Positions 5,816 to 30,729 are shown, numbered from the stretch's first letter. The stretch: 57,702 nucleotides of DNA from Acidimicrobiia bacterium (GCA_031406385.1 JANOHI010000022.1:1-57702), one strand, 5' to 3'. Made by a program: numbers and translations. Notes: generated from the letters alone by a model not told the origin.

Positions 5816-6062
5816 GCCTGGAACCGTAGGGACCTGGGGTTTCCCGGCAATACCGTCGATATGAACACTGCGTTTCCAGCCCGTTCGGCAGCGAGCGGCG
5901 GGGCTCGTTCGCTCGCGAAGTTCGGGGTTTGCGTTGCTCTCAGAGGTTCCATGCCGCTGGCGCAGCACCACGACGTGATGAGAATGGCCGGACGCGTCTC
6001 GCGTTTCCCCTGGTCAGCGCGTGGCGCCGTTCTATTCTCCTTACAGCAACTCAAGCCCCGAA

Positions 6063-7775
6063 CTACGACAGGTCGTGAGCTTCGAAGACGGGTGTGGGGC
6101 GGGCCATGCCCTTCAACTCGACTTCTCCGATGCGGTCGGCCCGCAAGGCGTCCCCGAGCATGGCGACGACGCGATCGGACACCAGGATCTGCCCGCCCCT
6201 GGCCTCGCCGCACAGGCGCGCCGCGAGATTCACCACGCTGCCGATGGCGGTGTATTCAAAGCGGCCTTCGAACCCGATCTGTCCGCAGGTGGCGTACCCC
6301 GCGGCCACACCGACTCCGAGGGTGAGGTCGTGGCCGCGCGTCTTCCATCGCTCCGACAGCCGACCCACCCGTTCACGCATGCCGATGGCCAACGTGATGG
6401 CACGGCGCGCCGGGTCGTCGCATGGAATCGGGTCGTTGAAGAACACCATCATGCCATCGCCGGTGAACTGGCTCAGGGTGCCGCCCTGCTCGAAGATAAG
6501 TGGACCTACGGCATCGTGCATCTCGCGCAACACCTCCATCACGTCCTCCGGCTCTGAGCGTTCGGCGAAGGACGTGAAGCCACGGAGGTCGCAGAACAAC
6601 GCGGTGATGTCGCGACGATGGCTCTTGAGCAGATCCACTCCGCCTGCCGCGATCACCTCCATCAGTTGCGGGGGGACGAAGCGCTGCATGAGGTTGAGTT
6701 GTTCGACCTTGCGCACCTGGTCGGCGACGCGCGCTTCCAGCTGTTGATTCCATGTGTGGAGTTCGGCGGCCTGCGCCTCGACCTGTGCGAGGAGTGCCTG
6801 TTCGCCGTCGCGCAGTCGCTTTTTCTCCACGCACGCACCGACGCGAGCCTTGAGGAGCACCGGGTCAAACGGCTTGGGAAGGTAGTCCTCGGCCCCGGCC
6901 TCGATACACCGCACGATGCTCGCCATGTCGTCGAGGGCCGAGATCATGATGACGGGGATGTGGCGGATCGCCGGGTCGTTGCGGTGCCGTTCGAGCACGG
7001 CGAACCCGTCCATGCGGGGCATCATCACGTCGAGCAGCACGAGATCGATCCCGGAGTCGGGCTCGGCGAGACGTTCGAGGGCTTCGATGCCGTCGCGGGC
7101 CTCGATGACGCCGTAGCCGAGCCGCTGCAGCCGTCGGCCCAGGACGTCTCGGTTCGCCTCGTCGTCGTCGACCACCAGGACCATCTCCAGCCGACCGGCC
7201 GCGGCCTCGGGTGTGCTTCCGGTGTCGCGGCTGACGAGAAGAGGGCCGCTGGTGAGCCGGGTGGCCAGCTCGCCGAGACGCGCTGTGGCCGAGGCGAGGC
7301 GTTCGAGGTCGGCGACGGGCAGGGCCCCGGGCTCGGCGAGAAGCGCCTTGGTCATGGTCGTCAGCTCATCGACCCTGTTCGTAAGCGTGCTTATGGCCTC
7401 AGTGGCCGCGGTGCCGACCGACTCGCCGTCCTCGGCGATGAGGCCGGGCACGAGTTCCAGCACGAGCCGCGCGGTGGCCCGGACGGCGTCGAGCTGTTGT
7501 GTCGTTGCGGCCGTGATGCCGTCTTCTTCGAGGAGGAGCTCGGAATAGCCGATCAGGTGGTTGACGGGCGTTCGCAGCTCGTGGCGCAGTTCCCGGATCT
7601 CGTCCGGAGTCATGGTTTGGTGGGTGGCGTCGTGAGGGGTCCGGCGGTGCTGGAGCAGCGAAGCGGAGGCGCATCGCGCCGTAGTGGCGAAGTCATGGTT
7701 TGGTGGGTTGTTCGGTGAGCGCGCTGGTGTCGCGAGCGCTGGCGCCGGGTTCATCTGCGGTGTCACGCCGAGCAC
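6063..7775 (-). CDS. H-box (HisKA-like, no ATPase domain) + receiver + coiled coil + class III adenylate/guanylate cyclase
   Basis: N-terminal H-box: RHELRTPVNHLIGYSELLLEE (His codon 7581-7583) followed by about 110 helical residues with no HATPase_c. Receiver: MVLVVDDDEANR...LVLLDVMMPRMDG...DYLPKPF. Cyclase: FCDLRGFTSF...FTGDGMMVFFNDP...VVNLAARL. An alternative start is the ATG at 7613 (MTPDEIREL). Confidence 0.85.
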   Translation of the reverse strand: MLGVTPQMNPAPALATPARSPNNPPNHDFATTARCASASLLQHRRTPHDATHQTMTPDEIRELRHELRTPVNHLIGYSELLLEEDGITAATTQQLDAVRATARLVLELVPGLIAEDGESVGTAATEAISTLTNRVDELTTMTKALLAEPGALPVADLERLASATARLGELATRLTSGPLLVSRDTGSTPEAAAGRLEMVLVVDDDEANRDVLGRRLQRLGYGVIEARDGIEALERLAEPDSGIDLVLLDVMMPRMDGFAVLERHRNDPAIRHIPVIMISALDDMASIVRCIEAGAEDYLPKPFDPVLLKARVGACVEKKRLRDGEQALLAQVEAQAAELHTWNQQLEARVADQVRKVEQLNLMQRFVPPQLMEVIAAGGVDLLKSHRRDITALFCDLRGFTSFAERSEPEDVMEVLREMHDAVGPLIFEQGGTLSQFTGDGMMVFFNDPIPCDDPARRAITLAIGMRERVGRLSERWKTRGHDLTLGVGVAAGYATCGQIGFEGRFEYTAIGSVVNLAARLCGEARGGQILVSDRVVAMLGDALRADRIGEVELKGMARPTPVFEAHDLS

Positions 7776-7781
7776 TCGACC

Positions 7782-8162
7782 TCATGGCGCGACCGGCTCG
7801 GTGACTCCGAGTGCAGCCATCTTCGCCAGTAGTCGGGGGAGGTCGACCGGCTTGGTGTCGTAGTCGTCGCAGCCCGCCTCCATCGCCTTCTCCCGATCGC
7901 CGGGCATGGAATGAGCCGTGAGGGCGATGACCGGGATGGCCTCGGTGGAGGCGTCGGCCCGAACCGCCCGGGTGGCCTCCCAGCCGTTCATGATCGGCAG
8001 GCTCATGTCCATCAGGATGAGGTCGGGACGCTCCGTCTTCGACATGGCCACGCCCTCGGCTCCGTCGACGGCCATCACCACCGTGAACCCGCGCCGCTCC
8101 AGCCGCCGCGACAGCATGTCGCGGTTCATCTCGTTGTCCTCGACGATCAAGATCTTCGGCAT
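7782..8162 (-). CDS. single-domain response regulator (CheY-like receiver)
   Basis: Receiver motifs: MPKILIVEDNEMNRDML...LILMDMSLPIMNG...ALTAH...DYDTKP. I use the ATG at 8162 rather than the track start at 8180. The stop lies 6 nt upstream of the cyclase ORF start. Confidence 0.85.
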   Translation of the reverse strand: MPKILIVEDNEMNRDMLSRRLERRGFTVVMAVDGAEGVAMSKTERPDLILMDMSLPIMNGWEATRAVRADASTEAIPVIALTAHSMPGDREKAMEAGCDDYDTKPVDLPRLLAKMAALGVTEPVAP

Positions 8163-8197
8163 CGCCCTTGAGTAAACCACCTCCCGGGTCGGGGTTT

Positions 8198-8240
8198 GGA
8201 AGATTCGTGGCGCTGGGCGCTACAAATCCTCCGAACCCTC
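8198..8240. repeat. left copy of a 43-nt direct repeat bracketing the DUF559-like gene of module 1
   Basis: ggaagattcgtggcgctgggcgctacaaatcctccgaaccctc matches 9226-9268 at 34/43 positions without gaps (hand count). The stop codon (cta on the plus strand) sits at the same offset in both copies. Confidence 0.75.
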
Positions 8241-9173
8241 AGCCAAGAGACGCCGCAGTGCGACGACCGTGCGGCGGAACGAGGCTCGATTCACCAGATC
8301 CCGGTCGGTCGCTTCGACGACTCGCCAGCGATGTGCAACGAGCAGGCGCCGCCGCTCGGCGTCGCGCTCCTGCGTGCGGCGGGACCCGTGGGTGAAGAAG
8401 GGGCTGACCTCAAGCGCCAACCGATCGTCATCCCAGGCAAAGTCAACCTCGACCACCTTCCCGCCACCGACCGGCACCCTGTAGTTGCGTTTCCACCCGC
8501 CCAGCCCGGCATCGTCGAGCCATCGACCGACGGTCTGCTCCTTGCCGCTTCGGTGGCCGATGCCAGTCGATCGGGCGTCGAGCAACCCGACGAGAAGCCG
8601 TCGGTTTCGAATCGACGATGGCGCTACGGATTCCAGCGCGGAACGAAGGGTCTCGACGCTGACCAGGCGATGGGCGAGGCAGTGGTCAAGGCACCGCTCG
8701 ACGACGGCCGCGTCGACGAACCGAGGGAGCAGGAGCAGCGTCGAGGCGGGCGTGGCCACATGGGTCGTCATCCATGACTGCCGCTGTGTTGAGCTCTGAC
8801 GTATGGTGGCGATCCCACGCAAGGTCACCCTCTGGTCGGTCGGAATGCTCAGCAGCTTCGGTGCGTCGGGATGCAGGAATCGCTGAGGTAGGGGCATCTG
8901 GTGGACGACGGCGGCGGAGACTCCGGCGATCGTCGAGCCAGGCACCGCAAGAGATGCTGCGAGGATGCCTTGCCTCGCACTCGGTGGCACGGCGGCGAGG
9001 CGCATCACGCCCGTATGGACGGGGACGAGCAGTCCGGCCTGTTGACGGCGGGAAAGCGCCGACCTGTCGATTCCGCGCTGCAACGCCTGGTCGACGGAGA
9101 TCAGACCCAGCTGGCGACGAGCAACGCGGTGCAGCAACTCGTCGATCTCGAAGGTGGAGTGAGCGCCTCGCAT
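8220..9173 (-). CDS. AbiEi-like winged-helix N-terminal domain + DUF559/Vsr-like C-terminal domain protein
   Basis: The N-terminus (LGLISVDQALQRGIDRSALSRRQQAGLLVPVHTGV) resembles AbiEi_4-type wHTH domains. The C-terminus (VVEVDFAWDDDRLALEVSPFFTHGSRRTQERDAERRRLLVAHRWRVVEAT) resembles DUF559/very-short-patch-repair-endonuclease-like folds. It is a paralog of 21611..22555. Confidence 0.7.
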   Translation of the reverse strand: MRGAHSTFEIDELLHRVARRQLGLISVDQALQRGIDRSALSRRQQAGLLVPVHTGVMRLAAVPPSARQGILAASLAVPGSTIAGVSAAVVHQMPLPQRFLHPDAPKLLSIPTDQRVTLRGIATIRQSSTQRQSWMTTHVATPASTLLLLPRFVDAAVVERCLDHCLAHRLVSVETLRSALESVAPSSIRNRRLLVGLLDARSTGIGHRSGKEQTVGRWLDDAGLGGWKRNYRVPVGGGKVVEVDFAWDDDRLALEVSPFFTHGSRRTQERDAERRRLLVAHRWRVVEATDRDLVNRASFRRTVVALRRLLAEGSEDL

Positions 9174-9225
9174 GGCCGCCCACTCTTGCGGCAGCGGTGT
9201 GACACTTCCGGCAGGCCGAGGATTC

Positions 9226-9247
9226 GGAAGTTTCGTAGCTCCCAGCG

Positions 9248-9268
<21 letters not shown>
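9226..9268. repeat. right copy of the 43-nt direct repeat (covers the last codons and stop of kinase 1)
   Basis: The sequence is ggaagtttcgtagctcccagcgctacaaatgttccaaaccctc (see 8198..8240). Kinase 1 ends ...EGLEHL* and the DUF559-like protein ends ...EGSEDL*. Confidence 0.75.
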
Positions 9269-15850
<6,582 letters not shown>

Positions 15851-15904
15851 TCGGGTCCTTCGTGGGTCCGAACTTCCGGTGGGGACCTTTGTCCACCAAC
15901 TTGC

Positions 15905-15951
15905 GTTCAGCAAACCACGCCCCGACCCACAACACTGTGATCCGGATCACA
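15905..15951 (-). promoter_or_regulatory. candidate CRP/GlxR-dependent promoter of kinase 1: perfect TGTGATCCGGATCACA palindrome + 16 nt + CGTGGTTTGCTGAAC (extended -10-like TGgTTTGCT)
   Basis: The palindrome spans 15936-15951 (TGTGA-N6-TCACA, perfect). The 15-mer at 15905-15919 is identical to the one at 30070-30084. If TTTGCT (15914-15909) is the -10 hexamer, the palindrome centre falls at about -41.5. Confidence 0.55.
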
Positions 15952-16040
15952 CAGCGGCCAGAACGTGGGGGCGGGTGCCGTTCGGCCGCCGTGTGAGTGA
16001 TGGCATCACCTCGGCCAAGCCCACCGTCGAATAGCCCTTT

Positions 16041-17345
16041 TCAGTCGAGCGACGAGCCATGCCCGGACCCAGCGAGCGTCGCCACGGGGACGACGTCGAT
16101 CTGGTCGCTGAGCGCATATCCGCGTGCTCCTGGGTAGTAGACGGTGAGCCGGTCGAGCTTGAGGTCCGTGAGAGCGGCTCGCATCGACGGCGTGATTCGC
16201 GGAGCGTCGGTCCGCTTCACCTCGATACCGATGCGCTGGTCGCCTCGAACGAGCAGGAGGTCGAGCTCGGCGCCGTTGCTCGTTCGCCAGAAGTATGGCG
16301 TCATCAACGGGTCATGACGTCGAATGCATTCTTCGATGACCGCGCCCTCCCACGTTGCACCCGATCGTGGGTGCCGCAGCAACGCCACGCGGTCGTCGAT
16401 GCCGAGGAGTGAGTGAGCGACACCCGAATCTCGGAAGTACACCTTCGGCGAGCGGACTTGGCGCTTGTCGAGATTCTCGTGCCATGGACGGAGGACTCGG
16501 GTCAGCATCGCATCGGACAGAACATCTATGTACTTACGGACTGTTGTTTCCGCAATGCCGAGGGCACGAGCCGGCTCGGCACTGTTCCAGAGTTGCCCGT
16601 GCGCGTGAGCAACAAGCGCGAGAAAGCGCTCGATCGTCGCCGCCGGAAGACCCAATCCGAAATCCGGGAGGTCTCGTGAGGAGAGTGTCCGGATGTAGTT
16701 GGTACGCCAGCGCACCGACGAGAGCTCATCGTCGGCCAGGTACGCCCGGGGAAATCCGCCCCGGAGCCACAACTCGTCGAAGTGATCAGCTCCGACATCG
16801 GCAAGAGAGAAGCCTCCGAGTTCGATCACCTCGAGTCGACCGGCGAGAGATTCCGACGCCTGGCGAAGCGCGGCCGGTGACGCGCTTCCGAGGACCAGGA
16901 ATCGTGCCGGACTGCCGGTTCGGTCAGCGAGCACTCGCAACACTGGGAACAGGTCCGGCCGTCGTTGTATCTCGTCGATGACGATGGTTCCTCGGAGGTT
17001 TTCGAGCGCCAGCATCGGCTCATCGAGACGGGCCAGGTCACGCGGGTCTTCGAGGTCGAAGTATGACTCGCCGCCCGCCGGTACGACGTTGCGGGAGAGG
17101 GTCGTTTTGCCGGTCTGACGAGCGCCGACGAGAAGGACGACGGGACTCCGAGCGAGCGCCGCGCCCAGCATGGCTTGGGCATCATTCCGAGGAATCACCC
17201 GGGTGAGTGTACCATGCAATACAGCGTCCAGCGCGGGGAATTGATTGGTGTAGAGGTGACGGGGGAAGACCCGTACCGCGACTGCTGGCACAAGCTCGCA
17301 GCGCGAACCCATTGGGCGGAGGCTGGTCTGTGCGACGTGCGTCAC
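16041..17345 (-). CDS. AAA+ ATPase of the AAA_14/DUF4143 type
   Basis: Walker A is LLVGARQTGKTTL and Walker B-like is TIVIDEIQR. The C-terminal part has the DUF4143-like pattern (YFRDSGVAHSLLG...GATWEGAVIEE). The true start is probably downstream of the track start. Confidence 0.75.
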   Translation of the reverse strand: MTHVAQTSLRPMGSRCELVPAVAVRVFPRHLYTNQFPALDAVLHGTLTRVIPRNDAQAMLGAALARSPVVLLVGARQTGKTTLSRNVVPAGGESYFDLEDPRDLARLDEPMLALENLRGTIVIDEIQRRPDLFPVLRVLADRTGSPARFLVLGSASPAALRQASESLAGRLEVIELGGFSLADVGADHFDELWLRGGFPRAYLADDELSSVRWRTNYIRTLSSRDLPDFGLGLPAATIERFLALVAHAHGQLWNSAEPARALGIAETTVRKYIDVLSDAMLTRVLRPWHENLDKRQVRSPKVYFRDSGVAHSLLGIDDRVALLRHPRSGATWEGAVIEECIRRHDPLMTPYFWRTSNGAELDLLLVRGDQRIGIEVKRTDAPRITPSMRAALTDLKLDRLTVYYPGARGYALSDQIDVVPVATLAGSGHGSSLD

Positions 17346-17403
17346 AACCTCCTACGATGCGTGCCGCTTCGCAACGAGCGGGGCCGAGACCACTGGAGCA
17401 TCC

Positions 17404-18504
17404 ATGTCGTCACCCGCCGCCGTCCCGCTCCCAGCCCGGATGGGCGACGTCACCCCGGCCTGGCTCACCTCGGCCCTCCAAGCGGCCGGGCACGACGTGG
17501 AGGTCGCCTCGGTCGACGCCACGCCGCTCGGCGTCGGCATCGGGATGATGTCGGGGTTGCAGAGCCTCGTCGTCACCTACGCACGCGGCACCGGCCCGGA
17601 ACGCCTTGTGCTCAAGATGCCGGCCGAGAACGACGTGAATCGCGCCGTCGCCGACCTTTACCACCTCTATGCCCGCGAGACCCTCTTCTACCGCGACGTT
17701 GCCCCGAAGAGCTCGGCCTACACCCCGACCGTCTACCGTGCCGATCTCGAGGGCGACAACTTCGTCCTTGTCATGGAACACCTCACCGATTACACGCTCG
17801 GGGATCAGGTGAAGGGATGCACACTGGAGGAGACGCAGGGCGGGGTCGCCTGGCTCGCCCGTCATCATGCGTCGCTGTGGGGTCAGACCGACGATCCGAT
17901 GTTCGCCTTCCTCCCGATGGTGTCGCCGTCGTACAGCTCCGAAGGGCTGGCGCAGGGATGTGCGTTCGGTTGGGATCCGATGACCGAGCTCTTCAGCGAT
18001 GTCGTGCCTCCGCGGATCGCCGCGCTGAAGGACAGGTACCTTGCTGCGTTGCCGAAGCTGTTCGACTGGATGGCCACGCCTCCGCTCACCGTCGTGCACG
18101 GCGACTTCCGCATGGACAACCTCTTCTTCGGATCGCTGCCCGGCCAGGAGCCGCTGATCGCCGTCGACTGGCAGGGCAGCCTTCGAGGACGCGCATCGCA
18201 GGACATCGCCTACTTCTTCAGTGGCAGCCTCCCCGTCGAGATTCGTCGCGAACATGAACGCGCGCTTATCAATCAGTGGCACGCCGGTCTCGTCGCCGGC
18301 GGCGTCACGGGCTTCAGTGCCGACGAGGCGTGGGAGGACTACCGCAAGGCCGTGCTCTACGTCTGGATCATGGCGGTCGTGATCGCGGGGACGCTTGATC
18401 CGACCAACGAGCGCGGTCGCCAGTGGATCTCCGTCATGCTTGAACGCTCGATCGCCGCCATCGACGACCTCGACCTTGTGTCGCTGATGGACGAGATGGC
18501 CTGA
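17404..18504 (+). CDS. phosphotransferase-family protein (APH/ecdysteroid-kinase-like fold)
   Basis: The catalytic-loop motif VVHGDFRMDNLFF and the downstream IAVDWQG are typical of the aminoglycoside/choline-kinase-like superfamily. The antisense 387-aa ORF has no motifs. Confidence 0.8.
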   Translation: MSSPAAVPLPARMGDVTPAWLTSALQAAGHDVEVASVDATPLGVGIGMMSGLQSLVVTYARGTGPERLVLKMPAENDVNRAVADLYHLYARETLFYRDVAPKSSAYTPTVYRADLEGDNFVLVMEHLTDYTLGDQVKGCTLEETQGGVAWLARHHASLWGQTDDPMFAFLPMVSPSYSSEGLAQGCAFGWDPMTELFSDVVPPRIAALKDRYLAALPKLFDWMATPPLTVVHGDFRMDNLFFGSLPGQEPLIAVDWQGSLRGRASQDIAYFFSGSLPVEIRREHERALINQWHAGLVAGGVTGFSADEAWEDYRKAVLYVWIMAVVIAGTLDPTNERGRQWISVMLERSIAAIDDLDLVSLMDEMA

Positions 18505-19333: not shown

Positions 19334-19350
19334 GTTGCTTCCGCAGCAAC
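19334..19350. terminator. hairpin between convergent genes (GTTGCT-tccgc-AGCAAC)
   Basis: A 6-bp stem with a 5-nt loop lies in the 87-nt gap between the SDR gene (+) and cyclase 2 (-). There is no U-tract, so it is only a weak terminator candidate. Confidence 0.3.
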
Positions 19351-19381
19351 GCAGACCCCGAACTCCGGAGTCGAGCACGAC

Positions 19382-20488
19382 TCAGTCGAGGAGGCGGACG
19401 ATCTCCAGGATCGGCACCGGGCGGGTGAGGCCCTTGAAGTCGGTGTCGCCGAGTGAGCGGGCCTCGACCCGGTCTTCCACTGCAGCGTGCACGCGGTTCG
19501 TCACCAGGATCTGCCCGCCGGGGGCGATGCCGCACACCCGGGCGGCGAGATTTACCACGGTGCCGATCGCGGTGTATTCGGTGCGGCCCTCGAACCCGAT
19601 CTCGCCGCACGTCGCAAAGCCCAGCGCGATGCCGATACCGAGGGTGAGCTCGTGTCCCCGACGCCGCCATGCCGTGGACAGCTCGGCGGTGCGCTCGCGC
19701 ATGTCGATGGCGAGCTGGACGGCGTTCCACGACGGATCGTCGAGCTTGACCGGGTCGTTGAAGAACACCAGCATGCCGTCGCCGGTGAACTGGGCGATGG
19801 TGCCGTCATAGTCGAAGATCATCGGGCCGACGGCTTCGTGGAACTCGCGCAGCACGGCCATGACCTCTTCGGGTTCGGCCGTCTCTGAGAACGATGTGAA
19901 GCCGCGCAGGTCGCAGAACAGCACGGTGATCTCGCGTCGATGGCTGGCCAGGATCGACTCGCCGCCGCTGGCGATCGCCTCGGCCAACTGGGGGCTGACG
20001 AAGCGACGCAGCATGGTGAGCCGTTCCACCTCGCGGACCTTCTCGTCGACCCGCTCCGCCAGGTGCTCGTTGAGGTCGCGCAGCTCGTCGGTCATCCGCT
20101 TCTTCTCGACGCAGGCACCGATGCGGGCATGGAGCAGCACAGGATCGAAGGGCTTCGGTAGATAGTCCTCGGCGCCGAGCTTGATGCAGGCGATGATCGA
20201 CGCCATCTCCTCCACCCCGGAGATCACGATGAACGGGATCGCCTTCAGGCGCTCGTTGCCGTGACGGTGCTCGAGGAACGCGTAGCCGTCCATGACCGGC
20301 ATCTCGATGTCGGTGAGCACGACGTCGATGCGGTCGCCTTCGGCTTCGAGCACGGCCAGGCCCTCGTGGGCGTTGCCGGCCTCGAGCACCGCGTAGCCGG
20401 CGTTTCCGAGCGACATCGAGAGCATCGTCCGGTTCAACGGGTCGTCATCGACGACCAACACGGTCGCAGTGGGGGCGGGTTCCGTCAT
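19382..20488 (-). CDS. receiver + coiled coil + class III adenylate/guanylate cyclase (paralog of 6063..7775, lacking the H-box domain)
   Basis: Receiver: TVLVVDDDPLNRTML...VVLTDIEMPVMDG...DYLPKPF. Cyclase: FCDLRGFTSF...FTGDGMLVFFNDP...VVNLAARV. I use the ATG at 20488 (MTEPAPT...); the track start is 20530. Confidence 0.88.
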   Translation of the reverse strand: MTEPAPTATVLVVDDDPLNRTMLSMSLGNAGYAVLEAGNAHEGLAVLEAEGDRIDVVLTDIEMPVMDGYAFLEHRHGNERLKAIPFIVISGVEEMASIIACIKLGAEDYLPKPFDPVLLHARIGACVEKKRMTDELRDLNEHLAERVDEKVREVERLTMLRRFVSPQLAEAIASGGESILASHRREITVLFCDLRGFTSFSETAEPEEVMAVLREFHEAVGPMIFDYDGTIAQFTGDGMLVFFNDPVKLDDPSWNAVQLAIDMRERTAELSTAWRRRGHELTLGIGIALGFATCGEIGFEGRTEYTAIGTVVNLAARVCGIAPGGQILVTNRVHAAVEDRVEARSLGDTDFKGLTRPVPILEIVRLLD

Positions 20489-20572
20489 GGCATGAGTCTC
20501 GCGTGCCGTTCGTGCAGGGAGCGACCCCATGGGAGCGGATGTTGCGACCCCGATGGGGGCGGAGGTTGTTCA

Positions 20573-20597
20573 CCTGGTCGCCCCCGGAGCGACCAGG
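20573..20597. repeat. degenerate third copy of the GTCGCCCCC...GGCGAC hairpin box, 3' of the SDR gene
   Basis: cctggtcgc-ccccgga-gcgaccagg forms a 9-bp stem. The flanks (cacc..., ...gacaccaagcatccgg) are alignable with the box at 21551-21600. Confidence 0.5.
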
Positions 20598-20617
20598 ACA
20601 CCAAGCATCCGGTGTGG

Positions 20618-21487
20618 CTAGCGGAGCTTGCGACCCTTCTTCTCCAACATGCGGTCGTTCACGTCCACCAGTTTCTCGCGCAGGCCGTCGGGCAGCTTGG
20701 TGATGATGCCGACGACCTTGGCGTCGGGCCCGACCAGGTAGCGAGCCTTGGGACGGGACGAGGTGAGCGCGTGCTCCACCGCCTTGGCGACGCGGTCCGC
20801 GTCGACGCCCTTTGTCTTTCCGTGCTCGACGAATGCCCGCTGGCCATCCAGGATGAAGCCGTAGCGATCGCGGAGTCGGCCGGTGAGCCGAGCCTCGCTG
20901 CTGGCCAGGGAATCCTCCCCCTTTTCCCAGATCGCCGTCTTGATCTCGCCCGGTTCGACCACCGACGAACGCATCTTGGTGTTCCGTGACAGTTCGCCAC
21001 GCAGTGCCCAGTTGAACGCCGAGACGGCATGTTTGCTCGCGGCGTACGGTCCGAGGCCCGCTGCAGCGATACGGCCGGCGATCGATCCTATGTGTACGAA
21101 CCTTCCGTCGGCCTTGTCGACAAGTGGCATGGCCTCGCGGGTGAGGGTGACGAGACTGAAGAAGTTCACGTCCATCTGCCAGCGCCACTCCTCATCGGTG
21201 AGTACTTCAGTCGGCCCGCCGACTGCGATGCCGGCGTTGTTCACGAGCCCGTTGAGCGAGCCGACCTCGGTGCCGATCTGGGTGAGAACCCGATCGACGT
21301 GCTCTCGAATGGTGACGTCGAGAATGACCGGTGTGATGTCGCCGGTGGTGGCGGCCACGAGTCGCGCGCCGTCGTCGTCTTTGCGGACACCGGCGTAGAC
21401 CTTCCACCCGTCCTTCGCGAGCCTGGCGACGCACGCGGCCCCGATCCCGGTCGAGGTGCCAGTGATGAGGACGGTCCGTGCGGGCAT
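20618..21487 (-). CDS. SDR-family oxidoreductase
   Basis: Motifs: LITGTSTGIGAA, NNAG, YAASKHA. I use the ATG at 21487, which is preceded by AAGGAG (rc of ggctccttga at 21491-21500). The track start is 21541. Confidence 0.88.
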   Translation of the reverse strand: MPARTVLITGTSTGIGAACVARLAKDGWKVYAGVRKDDDGARLVAATTGDITPVILDVTIREHVDRVLTQIGTEVGSLNGLVNNAGIAVGGPTEVLTDEEWRWQMDVNFFSLVTLTREAMPLVDKADGRFVHIGSIAGRIAAAGLGPYAASKHAVSAFNWALRGELSRNTKMRSSVVEPGEIKTAIWEKGEDSLASSEARLTGRLRDRYGFILDGQRAFVEHGKTKGVDADRVAKAVEHALTSSRPKARYLVGPDAKVVGIITKLPDGLREKLVDVNDRMLEKKGRKLR

Positions 21488-21550
21488 AGCGGCTCCTTGA
21501 TGGGCGGCGTTTTCGGTGGTGAGGCTAGTGAACGGGGACACGACGCCGAG

Positions 21551-21590
21551 ATTGGTACCTGAGTCGCCCCCAGGGCGACTCAGTGCACAA
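21551..21590. repeat. 40-nt hairpin box, copy 3' of the DUF559-like gene of module 2
   Basis: attggtacctgagtcgcccccagggcgactcagtgcacaa matches 22653-22692 at 36/40 positions. The stem is ctgagtcgccc/gggcgactcag (11 bp) with loop cca. Confidence 0.8.
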
Positions 21591-21610
21591 TCATCCCGGG
21601 TTTGGTGCGC

Positions 21611-22555
21611 TCAGGTGAGGCCCGTGGCTCGGAGGGTGGCGACGATCCGGGCAAAGGCCCGTTCGTTCGCGAGGTCGGCATCTACCGCTTCGACGACGCG
21701 CCAAGTGGCCACGGCTAGGAGCCGTCGACGCTCTGCATCACGGTCTTGGGTGACCCGAGAGCCGTGGGTGAAGAACGGGCTCACCTCCAGGGCGACACGG
21801 TCGTTCGGCCAGCCGAAGTCGACCTCCACCTCGACGACCTGACCGGAGCTATCGATCCGCACGGAGTAGTTGCGGGTCCACCCCGTGAGGCCGGCCCGGT
21901 TCAGCCAGCGCCCGACCATTTGCTCCTTGCCGCTTCGGTGCCCGATGCCGTTGGTGCGATCGGCGAGAAGATCGAGCAGCAGCTGCCGTCGAAACACGGC
22001 GTGCGGCGCCGTGGCGTCGAGCATCGCCCGAAGGTTGGCGACCGATGTGAGGCGGTGGGCCAGGCAATGGTCGAGGCATCGCTCGACGGTGCCTGCGTCG
22101 ACGAAGCGGGGGAGCAGGAGGACTGCGGCCGCCGGCGTCGCCAGCCTGGTCGTCATCCACCTCTTGCTGGGCGGGATGATCCGTTGGCGGACGACGGTGA
22201 TCCCGGGCACGCGGACGGCCCGCCCGCTGGCCACACTCAAGACCGCCTCGTCGTGAATGACTCGGGCGGGCACGGGCATCTGGTGGACGATTGCCGCCGA
22301 GGTCGCTGCGATGACCGAACCCGGCACGGCAAGTGCGGCGCCAAGGACACGTTGTTGGGGTGTGGTGGCGAACGGCGCGAGCTTCATGACGTTGGGGTAG
22401 AGCGGCACGAGCGCTCCGGAGTCACGACGCCCGGCCAGGGCGTGCTTGTCGATGCCGCAACGAGTCGCTTGCGCGACGGTGACCAGGCCGAGTTGGTTCG
22501 ACGCGATCGCCCGGATGCGCGCGTCGAGATCGAAGGTGGATTGGAGCCGCGCCAC
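21611..22555 (-). CDS. AbiEi-like wHTH + DUF559/Vsr-like protein (paralog of 8220..9173)
   Basis: Near-identical blocks with the module 1 protein: LLLPRFVDA..VERCLDHCLAHRL, GIGHRSGKEQ.VGRWL and ALEVSPFFTHGSR.TQ.RDAERRRLL. I use the GTG at 22555 (VARLQSTFDLD..., matching MRGAHSTFEIDE... of the paralog). The track extension to 22690 runs through the hairpin box. Confidence 0.7.
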   Translation of the reverse strand: MARLQSTFDLDARIRAIASNQLGLVTVAQATRCGIDKHALAGRRDSGALVPLYPNVMKLAPFATTPQQRVLGAALAVPGSVIAATSAAIVHQMPVPARVIHDEAVLSVASGRAVRVPGITVVRQRIIPPSKRWMTTRLATPAAAVLLLPRFVDAGTVERCLDHCLAHRLTSVANLRAMLDATAPHAVFRRQLLLDLLADRTNGIGHRSGKEQMVGRWLNRAGLTGWTRNYSVRIDSSGQVVEVEVDFGWPNDRVALEVSPFFTHGSRVTQDRDAERRRLLAVATWRVVEAVDADLANERAFARIVATLRATGLT

Positions 22556-22652
22556 GGTGAACCTCCGAGAGGGTTTCGGCGTATGCAGACCCGGGAAAGG
22601 GAACGGAGAGAGTGGCCGGGCGGGTGTGACGGTTCGCCGGGGCGGGCGCGTG

Positions 22653-22692
22653 ATTGGTATCTCAGTCGCCCCCGGGGCGACTGAGTGCACAA
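22653..22692. repeat. 40-nt hairpin box, copy 3' of kinase 2
   Basis: The sequence is attggtatctcagtcgcccccggggcgactgagtgcacaa. The stem is ctcagtcgcccc/ggggcgactgag. Relative to the 21551 copy, the stem position g:c is swapped to c:g (a compensatory change). Confidence 0.8.
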
Positions 22693-22700
22693 CCTCCGGC

Positions 22701-30041
<7,341 letters not shown>

Positions 30042-30069: not shown

Positions 30070-30116
30070 GTTCAGCAAACCACGAGTCGGCGGCGGCCAC
30101 CGTGATCAGGATCACA
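30070..30116 (-). promoter_or_regulatory. candidate CRP/GlxR-dependent promoter of kinase 2: TGTGATCCTGATCACG + 16 nt + CGTGGTTTGCTGAAC
   Basis: The palindrome spans 30101-30116 (15/16 match to TGTGA-N6-TCACA on the coding strand). The identical 15-mer lies at 30070-30084. Spacing is the same as upstream of kinase 1. Confidence 0.55.
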
Positions 30117-30142
30117 CAAGCCCGCACCAACTTCTTCGTGAT

Positions 30143-30182
30143 CCTCAGCGTGCATCTCGTTGCTCACTGAGCAACGAGGCGC
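30143..30182. promoter_or_regulatory. 40-nt conserved palindromic element, copy A (CTCGTTGC-N7-GCAACGAG core)
   Basis: cctcagcgtgcatctcgttgctcactgagcaacgaggcgc matches 33696-33735 at 36/40 positions (hand count). It lies about 27 nt upstream of the CRP-like site of kinase 2, in the kinase transcription direction. Confidence 0.5.
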
Positions 30183-30315: not shown

Positions 30316-30729
30316 TTACGGCAACGAGCCGCGGGGCGCAATCCACTCGGTGGGCTGGCCGGTGCACGACGCAATACGGTCGTAGTCCTCGTCGTAGTGC
30401 AGCACCGTGAGTCCGCCGGCCTCGGCGGCTGCGGCGATCAGCAGATCGGCGATGGTCACGCTTCGATGGTGAAGACCTCCGACCAGAGACAACGCTCGCT
30501 GAACCACGCGAGCCCGTGCGAAGGTCGAGGTCATCTCAACGCGACGAAGGCCCTCGAGGTTGCGCTCCGTCCGCGCGTAGTCCTTTGCGCTACGAGCGCT
30601 GTAGAGCACCTCCAGGGCGACCTGATCGCAGATCCACACCTTGTCGGCGAGGAGCAGCGTCTGCCAGCGGGCCGCGACGTTGGGGTCAGCCACACGATGC
30701 CAGGCACTGGTATCGACCAGGTACGTCAT
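30316..30729 (-). CDS. vapC: type II toxin VapC (PIN-domain ribonuclease)
   Basis: MTYLVDTSAWHRV carries the first PIN Asp. ...EVLYSA..., ...TIADLLIAAAAEAGGLTVLHYDEDYDRI carry the later acidic residues. The 137-aa protein lies 7 nt downstream of a small antitoxin gene. Confidence 0.85.
   Translation of the reverse strand: MTYLVDTSAWHRVADPNVAARWQTLLLADKVWICDQVALEVLYSARSAKDYARTERNLEGLRRVEMTSTFARARVVQRALSLVGGLHHRSVTIADLLIAAAAEAGGLTVLHYDEDYDRIASCTGQPTEWIAPRGSLP

What the first reader, a model, noticed from the sequence alone, without database searches (positions are those of the whole stretch)
15905..15951. Perfect CRP/GlxR palindrome at class II distance upstream of kinase 1
TGTGATCCGGATCACA (15936-15951) is a perfect match to the TGTGA-N6-TCACA consensus used by E. 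coli CRP and the actinobacterial GlxR/Crp proteins.

Sixteen nt further on, in the gene direction, lies CGTGGTTTGCTGAAC. This contains a TGn-extended -10-like hexamer, TTTGCT (15914-15909). With that hexamer at -12 to -7, the palindrome centre falls at -41.5, the classic class II activation geometry.

The operon it precedes ends in a nucleotide cyclase. A cNMP-CRP feedback loop on the kinase-cyclase operon is therefore plausible.

The geometry also argues that the TTG start at 15913 in the ORF track is wrong, because it lies inside the -10 box.
Basis: partly seen in the sequence, partly recalled or inferred. Interest (0 to 1): 0.75.

Follow-up and report, generated by a model that had tools for sequence, protein, structure and literature searches.

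The report
CRP-type operator at twin kinase promoters
A perfect CRP-type palindrome sits at activator distance from an unusual promoter box in front of a giant sensor-kinase gene, and the same module recurs before a distant paralogue and in related uncultured Acidimicrobiia, so it is a real regulatory switch of a familiar kind whose binding protein is still unidentified.

Summary
TGTGATCCGGATCACA (15936-15951) is the only perfect TGTGA-N6-TCACA in the window (0.03 expected).

New evidence makes it much stronger:
- A second giant multi-GAF kinase gene, K2 (22701-30041), is only 32% identical in protein to K1. It carries TGTGATCCTGATCACG, an unrelated 16-nt spacer, then the identical 15-mer CGTGGTTTGCTGAAC.
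- The same module stands before the kinase start in six of seven loci from related Acidimicrobiia MAGs, always with the 16-nt spacing.
- More distant orthologues lack the module. They have a canonical TAnnnT -10 where this clade has TG-n-TTTGCT.

With TTTGCT as the -10, the palindrome centre falls at -41.5, with 22 bp between the site and the second -10 base. That is class II geometry. GTG 15850, not TTG 15913, is the K1 start.

Not shown:
- The binding protein. No Crp-family gene was found in the window. The one Crp/Fnr-like gene beside the promoter (locus L004) lacks the RE..R recognition helix, and its adjacency is not conserved.
- The TSS.
- Co-transcription with the cyclase, because repeat hairpins separate the genes.
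- The cyclase product, because the specificity pair is a non-canonical Gln/Thr.

Verdict: a real conserved operator plus core promoter, most likely Crp-type class II. It is a new member of a known kind, of moderate interest.

The parts
15936..15951 (.). K1 operator: perfect palindrome TGTGATCCGGATCACA (TGTGATC-NN-GATCACA type), centre 15943.5
   Evidence: Identical in K1 orthologue loci L001, L002 and L021.
15920..15935 (-). 16-nt spacer. Length is invariant and sequence is not conserved between paralogues or orthologues.
   Evidence: Alignments
15905..15919 (-). Box 2, CGTGGTTTGCTGAAC: inferred TG-extended -10 region (TGg 15917-15915, TTTGCT 15914-15909). The inferred TSS is about 15902.
   Evidence: Identical 15-mer before K2. 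Distant orthologues have TAnnnT at the equivalent place. The TSS is inferred, not mapped.
15856..15861 (-). Shine-Dalgarno GAAGGA of K1
   Evidence: five nt upstream of GTG 15850
9248..15850 (-). K1: 11 x GAF + HisKA + HATPase_c sensor kinase (2200 aa). The start is revised to GTG 15850.
   Evidence: Pfam. N-terminal alignment with K2.
8220..9173 (-). AbiEi_4-like wHTH protein with a DUF559-like C-terminal part, flanked by repeat hairpins
7782..8162 (-). Single-domain receiver protein (probable start ATG 8162)
6063..7775 (-). HisKA-like + REC + class III cyclase (CYC1), with specificity residues Gln/Thr
30101..30116 (-). K2 operator: TGTGATCCTGATCACG as read in the gene direction. One mismatch to the CRP core.
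30070..30084 (-). K2 box 2, CGTGGTTTGCTGAAC (TTTGCT 30079-30074). The inferred TSS is about 30067, and the operator centre 30108.5 is at -41.5.
22701..30041 (-). K2: 10 x GAF + HisKA + HATPase_c + 2 REC + Hpt hybrid kinase (2446 aa)
21611..22606 (-). Second AbiEi_4-like gene (55% identical to 8220-9173). The ORF may start upstream, at 22690.
20618..21541 (-). Short-chain dehydrogenase of the K2 cluster. In related MAG locus L002 it has its own palindrome, TGTGATCACGATCACG, which is deleted in the window.
19382..20530 (-). REC + class III cyclase (CYC2), with specificity residues Gln/Thr

Best explanation
The palindrome is the operator of a dimeric helix-turn-helix regulator that reads TGTGA(TC) half-sites 6 bp apart, most likely a Crp/GlxR-family protein encoded elsewhere in the genome. 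It is centred at -41.5 of a promoter whose only recognisable core element is a TG-extended but non-canonical -10 (TGgTTTGCT, no A at -11, no -35). Bound there, the regulator would replace the missing -35 contact and recruit or isomerise RNA polymerase, which is class II activation. This would switch on the giant multi-GAF kinase gene K1 and, through an identical module, its paralogue K2.

Shown:
- the site and its rarity;
- its selective conservation with fixed spacing in paralogous and orthologous promoters;
- the revised start codon.

Inferred:
- the -10 and the TSS;
- activation rather than repression;
- the Crp-family identity of the binder;
- any cNMP feedback from the downstream REC-cyclases.
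For: **Rarity.** It is the only perfect TGTGA-N6-TCACA in the window, against 0.03 expected. The extended motif at up to 1 mismatch occurs twice against 0.01 expected, and no further site appears even at 3 mismatches.

**Paralogue conservation.** K1 and K2 proteins are 32% identical. Their upstream regions align only at the palindrome (14 of 16) and the 15-mer (15 of 15), separated by an unalignable spacer of identical length.

**Orthologue conservation.** Six of seven related Acidimicrobiia loci carry TGTGATC-NN-GATCAC[A/G] + 16 nt + CGTGGTTTGCT before the kinase start. The central NN varies (CG, CT, TC, AC), as expected for positions Crp does not contact. Flanks upstream of the palindrome are unrelated.

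**Geometry.** The centre is at -41.5 at both promoters, with 22 bp between the site and the second -10 position. The review calls this spacing exclusive to class II promoters (PMC10187061).

**The -10 assignment.** Distant orthologues without the module have a canonical TACAGT, TACGGT or TAGAGT -10 about 25 nt before the start codon, at the place occupied by TTTGCT here. The sigma-70 consensus scan found no promoter-like site in 5900-17500, which includes the K1 upstream region.

**Match to CRP.** The half-sites match the ideal E. coli CRP site TGTGATCTAGATCACA at 14 of 16 positions (own knowledge). The TGTGA-N6-TCACA motif is conserved across distant phyla, including Actinobacteria (PMC10187061).

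**Context.** Both clusters contain REC-cyclases. A third palindrome precedes the SDR-cyclase unit in locus L002, with TTCACT at the same 22-bp spacing. Relatives do encode cNMP-binding Crp/Fnr-type proteins.

**Precedent.** The R. centenum gcyB-gcyC-cgrA cyclase operon carries a perfect CAP motif (PMC10187061).
Against: - No Crp-family gene was found among the window ORFs scanned with Pfam or by tblastn in the window and the loci held then (L001-L021). The rest of the genome could not be searched.
- The one Crp/Fnr-like gene next to such a promoter (L004 9016-9675) has EPQRFSS where CRP has SRETVGR, so none of R180, E181 and R185 is kept. Its homologues elsewhere are not next to GAF kinases or palindromes.
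- TTTGCT lacks the A at -11 that sigma-70-type -10 elements almost always have (own knowledge). Box 2 is conserved over 11-15 nt, more than a -10 needs, so it may be something else or something more.
- A site covering -49 to -34 could equally repress.
- All known sites are almost identical to each other, and within about 100 kb of this lineage they occur only in this gene cluster. That pattern is more typical of a dedicated local regulator than of a global Crp regulon.
- L020 keeps box 2 but has no palindrome at the expected place.
- The TSS is not mapped.
Confidence: 0.5

Rival explanations
1. The palindrome is the operator of a regulator outside the Crp family. Candidates are the AbiEi_4-like winged-helix protein encoded directly after each kinase (autoregulation), a Rex-type redox repressor, or an unknown dedicated regulator.
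For: - An AbiEi_4-like gene follows the kinase in every motif-bearing cluster whose downstream part is held (window K1 and K2, L002/L007, L004). It is absent from motif-less clusters L014 and L011.
- The sites are nearly identical to one another and confined to this cluster, as expected for a dedicated regulator.
- Rex operators (TTGTGAA-N4-TTCACAA, own knowledge) formally fit TGTGA-N6-TCACA.
Against: - The AbiEi-like proteins diverge fast: 55% identity between the window copies and 22% to the L004 copy. Yet the L004 palindrome is identical to those of L005 and L007. Operator and cognate regulator would be expected to co-vary.
- These genes are flanked by repeat hairpins, like insertions.
- Rex sites have A at position 6, T at position 11 and flanking T/A. 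All seven sites here have T6/A11 and G flanks.
- LacI-type operators need a central CG, but the centre varies here (CG, CT, TC, AC).
Confidence: 0.25
2. The site is a repressor operator, whatever the family. A dimer covering -49 to -34 blocks RNA polymerase at a promoter that is otherwise constitutively active from the TG-extended -10.
For: - A site at this position overlaps the -35 region, and CRP-FNR proteins also act as repressors depending on position (PMC10187061).
- L020 keeps box 2 without a palindrome, which suggests the core promoter can stand alone.
- Extended -10 promoters do not need a -35 (own knowledge).
Against: - The exact, invariant 22-bp phasing to the -10 in all copies is needed for face-of-helix contacts by an activator, but not for simple occlusion.
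- The -10 is very poor (no A at -11), whereas motif-less relatives have canonical -10 boxes.
Confidence: 0.15
3. The similarity is a non-functional relic of the gene duplication, a product of gene conversion, or an RNA-level element (hairpin or terminator of the upstream gene, or a 5' leader structure).
For: - The palindrome could form a short hairpin.
- The upstream AAA_14/DUF4143 gene ends 90 nt before it.
Against: - The proteins are only 32% identical, and neutral DNA would be randomised at that distance.
- The spacer between the two conserved blocks has diverged, which argues against a conversion tract.
- There is no U-run and no terminator call there, and no Rfam match.
- The leader fold is not better than shuffles, z = -1.08.
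- The half-sites are invariant, with no compensatory change.
Confidence: 0.05

Closest known systems
Class II CRP(CAP)-dependent promoters of E. coli (site centred at -41.5, for example galP1 or melAB; own knowledge; review PMC10187061)
   Same: - A 16-bp TGTGA-N6-TCACA site, even matching the inner TC/GA of the ideal site.
- Centre at -41.5, with 22 bp to the second -10 base.
- No -35 element, and a TG-extended -10.
   Different: - The organism is an uncultured, high-GC Acidimicrobiia bacterium.
- The -10 hexamer is TTTGCT, without the A at -11.
- The activator, TSS and cNMP dependence are unknown.
Actinobacterial Crp/GlxR regulons (M. tuberculosis Rv3676, C. glutamicum GlxR)
   Same: - The same phylum.
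- The same core motif.
- cAMP signalling with many class III cyclases.
   Different: - No orthologue was identified here.
- Known regulons have degenerate sites spread over many promoters. Here there are three near-identical sites confined to one signalling gene cluster.
Rhodospirillum centenum gcyB-gcyC-cgrA operon (cGMP-CRP feed-forward; PMC10187061)
   Same: A perfect CAP-type palindrome in the promoter of an operon that encodes nucleotide cyclases, giving a cNMP-CRP loop on its own synthesis genes.
   Different: - There the Crp-family receptor is encoded in the same operon and was shown to bind cGMP.
- Here no receptor is encoded in the cluster, and the cyclases are REC-regulated with a Gln/Thr specificity pair.
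Rex operator (TTGTGAA-N4-TTCACAA; own knowledge)
   Same: An overlapping core, TGTGA...TCACA, with the same overall length.
   Different: - The inner A/T and the outer T/A positions that characterise Rex boxes are not matched in any of the seven sites.
- There are no redox genes downstream.

Membership tests
Crp/CAP-family binding site | 16-bp inverted repeat matching TGTGA-N6-TCACA | tested here: met
   The K1 site matches 10 of 10 core positions. K2 and the orthologue sites match 8-9 of 10.
Crp/CAP-family binding site | Half-sites conserved while the central, non-contacted bases vary among homologous sites | tested here: met
   TGTGATC and GATCAC are invariant apart from one T>C in L006. The central dinucleotide is CG, CT, TC or AC.
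Crp/CAP-family binding site | A Crp-family protein (cNMP_binding + HTH_Crp) with an RE..R-type recognition helix encoded in the genome | not testable with these tools
   Only the 57.7-kb window is available. None was found among the ORFs scanned or by tblastn. The Crp/Fnr-like neighbour in relative L004 has EPQRFSS, not RE..R.
Crp/CAP-family binding site | cNMP-dependent binding of the protein to the site | not testable with these tools
   Needs EMSA or ChIP.
Class II activator-dependent promoter | Site centred near -41.5 from the TSS (22 bp from site to second -10 base) | tested here: inconclusive
   The geometry is exact relative to the inferred -10 TTTGCT at both promoters and in all orthologues. 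The TSS is not mapped and the hexamer lacks the A at -11.
Class II activator-dependent promoter | Weak or absent -35, with the core promoter dependent on the activator | tested here: inconclusive
   There is no -35-like hexamer, and the consensus scan found no sigma-70-like promoter in 5900-17500, which includes the K1 upstream region. Motif-less relatives have canonical TAnnnT. Dependence itself is untested.
Rex operator | TTGTGAA-N4-TTCACAA, with A at position 6, T at position 11 and flanking T/A | tested here: not met
   All sites have TGTGAT..ATCACA, preceded by G or C. The consensus is from own knowledge.
LacI/GalR-type operator | Palindrome with an invariant central CG | tested here: not met
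   The centre is CG only at K1. It is CT, TC or AC elsewhere.
Intrinsic terminator or structured RNA leader | A stable G+C-rich hairpin with a U tract, or a fold better than chance, or an Rfam family match | tested here: not met
   No terminator call at the site, no Rfam match, fold z = -1.08.
AbiEi-type autoregulated operator | The operator co-occurs and co-varies with the cognate wHTH protein encoded in the same unit | tested here: inconclusive
   Co-occurrence is met. Co-variation is not: the proteins are 22-55% identical while the operators are near-identical.

The most novel reading that the evidence does not exclude
Two paralogous phosphorelays, each a giant 10-11-GAF kinase feeding a REC-gated class III cyclase with an unusual Gln/Thr specificity pair, are wired into a positive feedback loop. 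The cyclase product, possibly not cAMP, activates a Crp-type receptor, which switches on both kinase promoters (and, in a sister genome, the SDR-cyclase unit) through a stringent TGTGATC-NN-GATCACA operator and a -10 that lacks the A at -11. That would be a bistable second-messenger switch in uncultured Acidimicrobiia.
Probability: 0.2. Interest if true: 0.6.

Novelty: new member of a known kind. Interest (0 to 1): 0.4.

Why it matters
Nothing is known experimentally about transcription control in these uncultured soil Acidimicrobiia. This module gives three things:
- A clean, comparatively validated operator plus core promoter that can be synthesised and tested.
- Evidence that the CRP-type site and class II spacing rule extend to this deep actinobacterial class.
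- A concrete hypothesis linking a cNMP receptor to two very large multi-GAF phosphorelay-cyclase systems.

It also corrects the K1 start codon. It is not a new kind of mechanism.

Tried and rejected
**Searches that found nothing**
- Crp gene in the window and loci: Pfam on about 40 ORFs and tblastn with E. coli CRP and M. tuberculosis Crp (both sequences recalled from memory). Nothing in the window.
- Metagenome scan for GATCNNGATCAC-N17-19-GTGGTTTGCT: four hits, all chance matches in coding or unrelated DNA. No evidence for the module before other genes.
- Literature on Crp in Acidimicrobiia: nothing relevant.

**The Crp/Fnr-like gene in L004**
- It lies divergent from the kinase promoter, but its recognition helix is non-canonical.
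- Its homologues (P0042, P0043) sit in unrelated contexts with no palindrome.
- I treat the adjacency as probably coincidental.

**Alternative readings rejected**
- AbiEi_4-like protein as the binder: weakened by its lack of co-variation with the operator.
- Alternative readings of box 2 (ECF -35 TGAAC with a downstream -10, SigF/SigB GTTT...GGGTA, GlnR box, sigma-70 -35 TTGCTG with a -10 17 nt downstream). No conserved partner element exists in the T-free K2 leaders (reading).
- RNA element or terminator.
- Third CRP-like match, TGCGACGTGCGTCACA (17331-17346): it does not fit the extended motif, and 1.18 such matches are expected by chance.
- cNMP-binding GAF domains: there is no NKFDE motif in K1 or K2, so there is no support for direct cNMP sensing by the kinases.

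Full report
**1.

- On the minus (gene) strand the region reads ...gccgcTGTGTGATCCGGATCACAgtgttgtgggtcggggCGTGGTTTGCTGAACgcaag....
- TGTGATCCGGATCACA (15936-15951) is a perfect 16-bp palindrome. It is the only exact TGTGA-N6-TCACA in the window: 0.03 expected from shuffles, and 3 of 100 shuffles had one.
- Looser matches are at background: 13 found versus 17 expected at up to 2 mismatches, and 3 versus 1.2 at up to 1 mismatch.
- The 15-mer CGTGGTTTGCTGAAC is at 15905-15919, 16 nt downstream of the palindrome.
- With TTTGCT (15914-15909) taken as -12..-7, +1 is about 15902 and the palindrome centre (15943.5) is at -41.5.

**2. The gene and its start**

- The ORF 9248-15913 encodes a cytoplasmic sensor kinase with 11 GAF domains, HisKA and HATPase_c.
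- The next in-frame start after TTG 15913 is GTG 15850. It is preceded by GAAGGA at 15861-15856.
- From GTG 15850 the protein begins MTSDN... and aligns from residue 1 with the paralogue K2 (MTAAD...), whose ORF cannot extend further upstream.
- The true start is therefore GTG 15850, and 15851-16040 is a 190-nt intergenic region. It rests on homology and the SD rather than on the promoter model alone.

**3. Key new evidence: the same module before a distant paralogue**

- A second giant kinase, K2 (22701-30041, minus strand), has 10 GAF domains, HisKA, HATPase_c, two REC domains and an Hpt domain. It is only 32% identical to K1 overall.
- Its upstream region reads ...cttGTGTGATCCTGATCACGgtggccgccgccgactCGTGGTTTGCTGAACagcacgg....
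- In an alignment of the two intergenic regions only two blocks match: the palindrome (14 of 16) and the 15-mer (15 of 15). They are separated by a 16-nt spacer of unrelated sequence but identical length.
- The extended motif TGTGATC-NN-GATCACA at up to 1 mismatch occurs twice against 0.01 expected. Relaxing to 3 mismatches adds nothing. The 15-mer occurs twice against 0.08 expected.
- With proteins this diverged, neutral DNA would be randomised. A gene-conversion tract would include the spacer. The two blocks and their distance are therefore under selection.

**4. Orthologous loci**

- A scan of species-representative genomes with the K1/K2 N-terminal alignment returned seven loci, all from Acidimicrobiia MAGs.
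- Six of them carry the module before the kinase start: TGTGATC-NN-GATCAC[A/G], exactly 16 variable nucleotides, then CGTGGTTTGCT(GAAC, or TAGC in L004). These are L001 and L002 (K1 orthologues), L005-L007 (K2-like), and L004 (an Acidimicrobiales MAG, 47% identity).
- A further short-read contig, L021, repeats the K1 version.
- The central dinucleotide varies (CG, CT, TC, AC). The half-sites are invariant apart from one T>C in L006. Everything upstream of the palindrome is unrelated between lineages.
- More distant orthologues (L003, L008, L009, L011-L014; N-termini M[AS]DD[IV]EAQL) lack both boxes. About 25 nt before their start codons they have a canonical actinobacterial -10: tcgtcTACAGT, TACTGT, TACGGT or TAGAGT.
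- That comparison is the best available support for reading TGgTTTGCT as the -10 region of this clade.
- One K2-like short contig, L020, keeps TGGTTTGCTGAAC but has no palindrome at the expected distance. The contig starts right there.
- A metagenome scan for the composite pattern gave only four chance hits. I found no instance before an unrelated gene.

**5. A third site in a sister genome**

- In L002, which is on the same contig as L007, a further palindrome TGTGATCACGATCACG lies about 80 nt before the ATG of the short-chain dehydrogenase that precedes the REC-cyclase of the K2 cluster.
- TTCACT follows it at the same 22-bp phasing.
- The window has a deletion of about 27 nt exactly there.
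- The operator is therefore used modularly within this gene cluster.

**6. How it most likely works**

- The review PMC10187061 states three relevant points. CAP binds TGTGA-N6-TCACA through R180, E181 and R185 of the RETVGR helix. At class II promoters the dimer sits in the -35 region. A 22-bp spacing between the site and the second -10 position is exclusive to class II.
- Here that spacing is exactly 22 bp (15935-15914), and it is the same at K2.
- No -35-like hexamer exists, and the consensus scan finds no sigma-70-type promoter in 5900-17500, which includes the K1 upstream region.
- The inner bases (TGTGATC...GATCACA) also match the ideal E. coli site TGTGATCTAGATCACA at 14 of 16 positions (own knowledge).
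- I therefore favour a Crp-family dimer activating a weak TG-extended promoter from -41.5.
- This is inference. The TSS is unmapped, TTTGCT lacks the A at -11 (a real weakness), and box 2 is conserved over more positions than a -10 needs.

**7. The trans factor is not identified**

- No ORF scanned in the window has cNMP_binding or HTH_Crp domains, and tblastn with CRP and Rv3676 found nothing.
- In L004 a 219-aa cNMP_binding + weak HTH_Crp_2 protein is encoded divergently, 177 nt from the palindrome.
  - Its phosphate-binding cassette (GEIAVIDGGVRSAT) is intact, and it matches Mtb Crp and GlxR structures over its full length at E of about 1e-9.
  - Its recognition helix reads EPQRFSS where CRP has SRETVGR.
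  - Homologues in L022-L024 are neither next to GAF kinases nor near such palindromes.
  - The gene shows that relatives of this lineage encode cNMP-responsive Crp/Fnr proteins. It is probably not the cognate binder.
- The AbiEi_4-like winged-helix gene follows the kinase in every motif-bearing cluster seen, and is absent from motif-less ones.
  - It diverges to 22-55% identity while the operator stays almost identical.
  - It is flanked by repeat hairpins, like an insertion.
  - It remains a weaker rival.
- Rex and LacI-type operators fail on defining positions.
- RNA-level explanations have no support.

**8. The 'kinase-cyclase operon' and the feedback idea**

- Cluster 1 is K1, then the AbiEi_4-like gene, then REC (7782-8162), then HisKA-like-REC-cyclase (6063-7775).
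- Cluster 2 is K2, then the AbiEi_4-like gene, then SDR, then REC-cyclase (19382-20530). It is followed by convergent genes.
- The kinase to REC-cyclase pairing is conserved in relatives.
- Palindromic repeat elements sit between most genes, so co-transcription from the palindrome-bearing promoter to the cyclase is unproven.
- Both cyclases and their orthologues have Gln (GT[IL][AS]QFTGDG) at the position where CyaB has Lys and wild-type Cya2 has Glu. They have Thr at the second position. The product may be cAMP, but this is not assured.
- The GAF domains lack the NKFDE signature of cNMP-binding GAFs.
- A cNMP-Crp loop is thus plausible and has a precedent in the R. centenum gcyB-gcyC-cgrA operon. 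Here it rests only on gene neighbourhood.

**9. Verdict**

- This is a real, selectively conserved operator plus core-promoter module shared by two paralogous multi-GAF kinase genes in a clade of uncultured Acidimicrobiia.
- Its sequence and geometry are those of a class II Crp-dependent promoter.
- Confidence is about 0.5 for that mechanism and above 0.9 that it is a functional protein-binding regulatory module.
- The kind is known, so the novelty class is new member of a known kind. Interest is moderate, 0.4.

Noticed in passing
window 8177-8244 and 9214-9281; 20560-20607, about 21560-21600 and 22651-22698; 5916-5938 and 19345-19367; also L005-L007 just upstream of the palindrome: At least three families of 45-70-nt palindromic repeat elements (REP/MITE-like hairpins) sit between the genes of both clusters. 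Two copies flank the AbiEi_4-like gene at 8220-9173, and these two even supply the last codons and stop codons of K1 and of the AbiEi-like gene. They may be terminators, mRNA stabilisers or insertion scars.
   Followed up: partly
window 6063-7775 and 19382-20530; L002, L004, L011: The REC-cyclases and their orthologues have Gln at the Lys/Glu substrate-specifying position (GTIAQFTGDG or GTLSQFTGDG) and Thr at the second (R[TF]EYTAIG). This is a non-canonical pair, so the nucleotide made is uncertain.
   Followed up: partly
L002 5076-5091 (same site as L007 20107-20122); window about 21540-21560: A third operator copy, TGTGATCACGATCACG, lies before the SDR gene of the K2 cluster in a sister MAG, with TTCACT at the same 22-bp spacing. 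The window has a deletion of about 27 nt that removes it.
   Followed up: partly
L004 9016-9675 (minus strand) and 9676-9780; L024 7282-7357: A divergent cNMP-binding Crp/Fnr-like gene with a non-canonical recognition helix (EPQRFSS) lies next to the kinase promoter in L004. Its own upstream region is AT-rich, with repeated TTCACGA elements. TTCGTGAAAGA is conserved before the homologue in L024.
   Followed up: partly
window 8171-8180 (minus strand): A box-2-like GTGGTTTACT (TGgTTTACT) lies 9 nt before the probable ATG (8162) of the single-domain REC gene. It could be a -10 for a near-leaderless REC-cyclase transcript, but there is no palindrome at -41.5 and 1.7 such matches are expected by chance.
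   Followed up: no
window 15997-16009 (minus strand): A second palindrome, GTGATGCCATCAC (GTGAT-N3-ATCAC, one bp shorter than the operator core), lies about 60 bp upstream of the main site, at roughly -101. Its only available comparators are near-identical K1 loci, so conservation is uninformative.
   Followed up: no
window about 30157-30176 and about 30133-30145 (minus strand): A perfect inverted repeat, CGTTGCTCA-G-TGAGCAACG, and a lone GATCACG half-site lie between the PIN gene and the K2 operator.
   Followed up: no
window 30316-30729 (minus strand); L011 and L014 (PIN genes called); probably L003 and L008 (similar C-terminal ends): A PIN-domain (VapC-like) toxin gene lies directly upstream of the multi-GAF kinase on the same strand, in both motif-bearing and motif-less lineages. 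This is conserved synteny of unknown meaning.
   Followed up: no
window 17331-17346: TGCGACGTGCGTCACA, one mismatch to the CRP core, overlaps the GTG start of the AAA_14/DUF4143 gene in the 58-nt divergent region towards the EcKL-kinase gene. It does not fit the extended motif and is probably chance.
   Followed up: partly
window 9248-15850 and 22701-30041: The kinases consist of 10-11 tandem GAF domains built from a repeating unit of about 530-1050 nt, with conserved linkers (FADQA.IAI.NA.LF..L). They have no transmembrane or other sensor domain and no NKFDE motif. In long-read MAG assemblies these genes are usually broken by frameshifts.
   Followed up: partly
window 16041-17345: The AAA_14/DUF4143 ATPase gene between the two clusters did not pass the GC3 > 0.78 filter that the neighbouring kinase and cyclase genes passed. 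It may be a recent insertion separating the K2 and K1 clusters.
   Followed up: no
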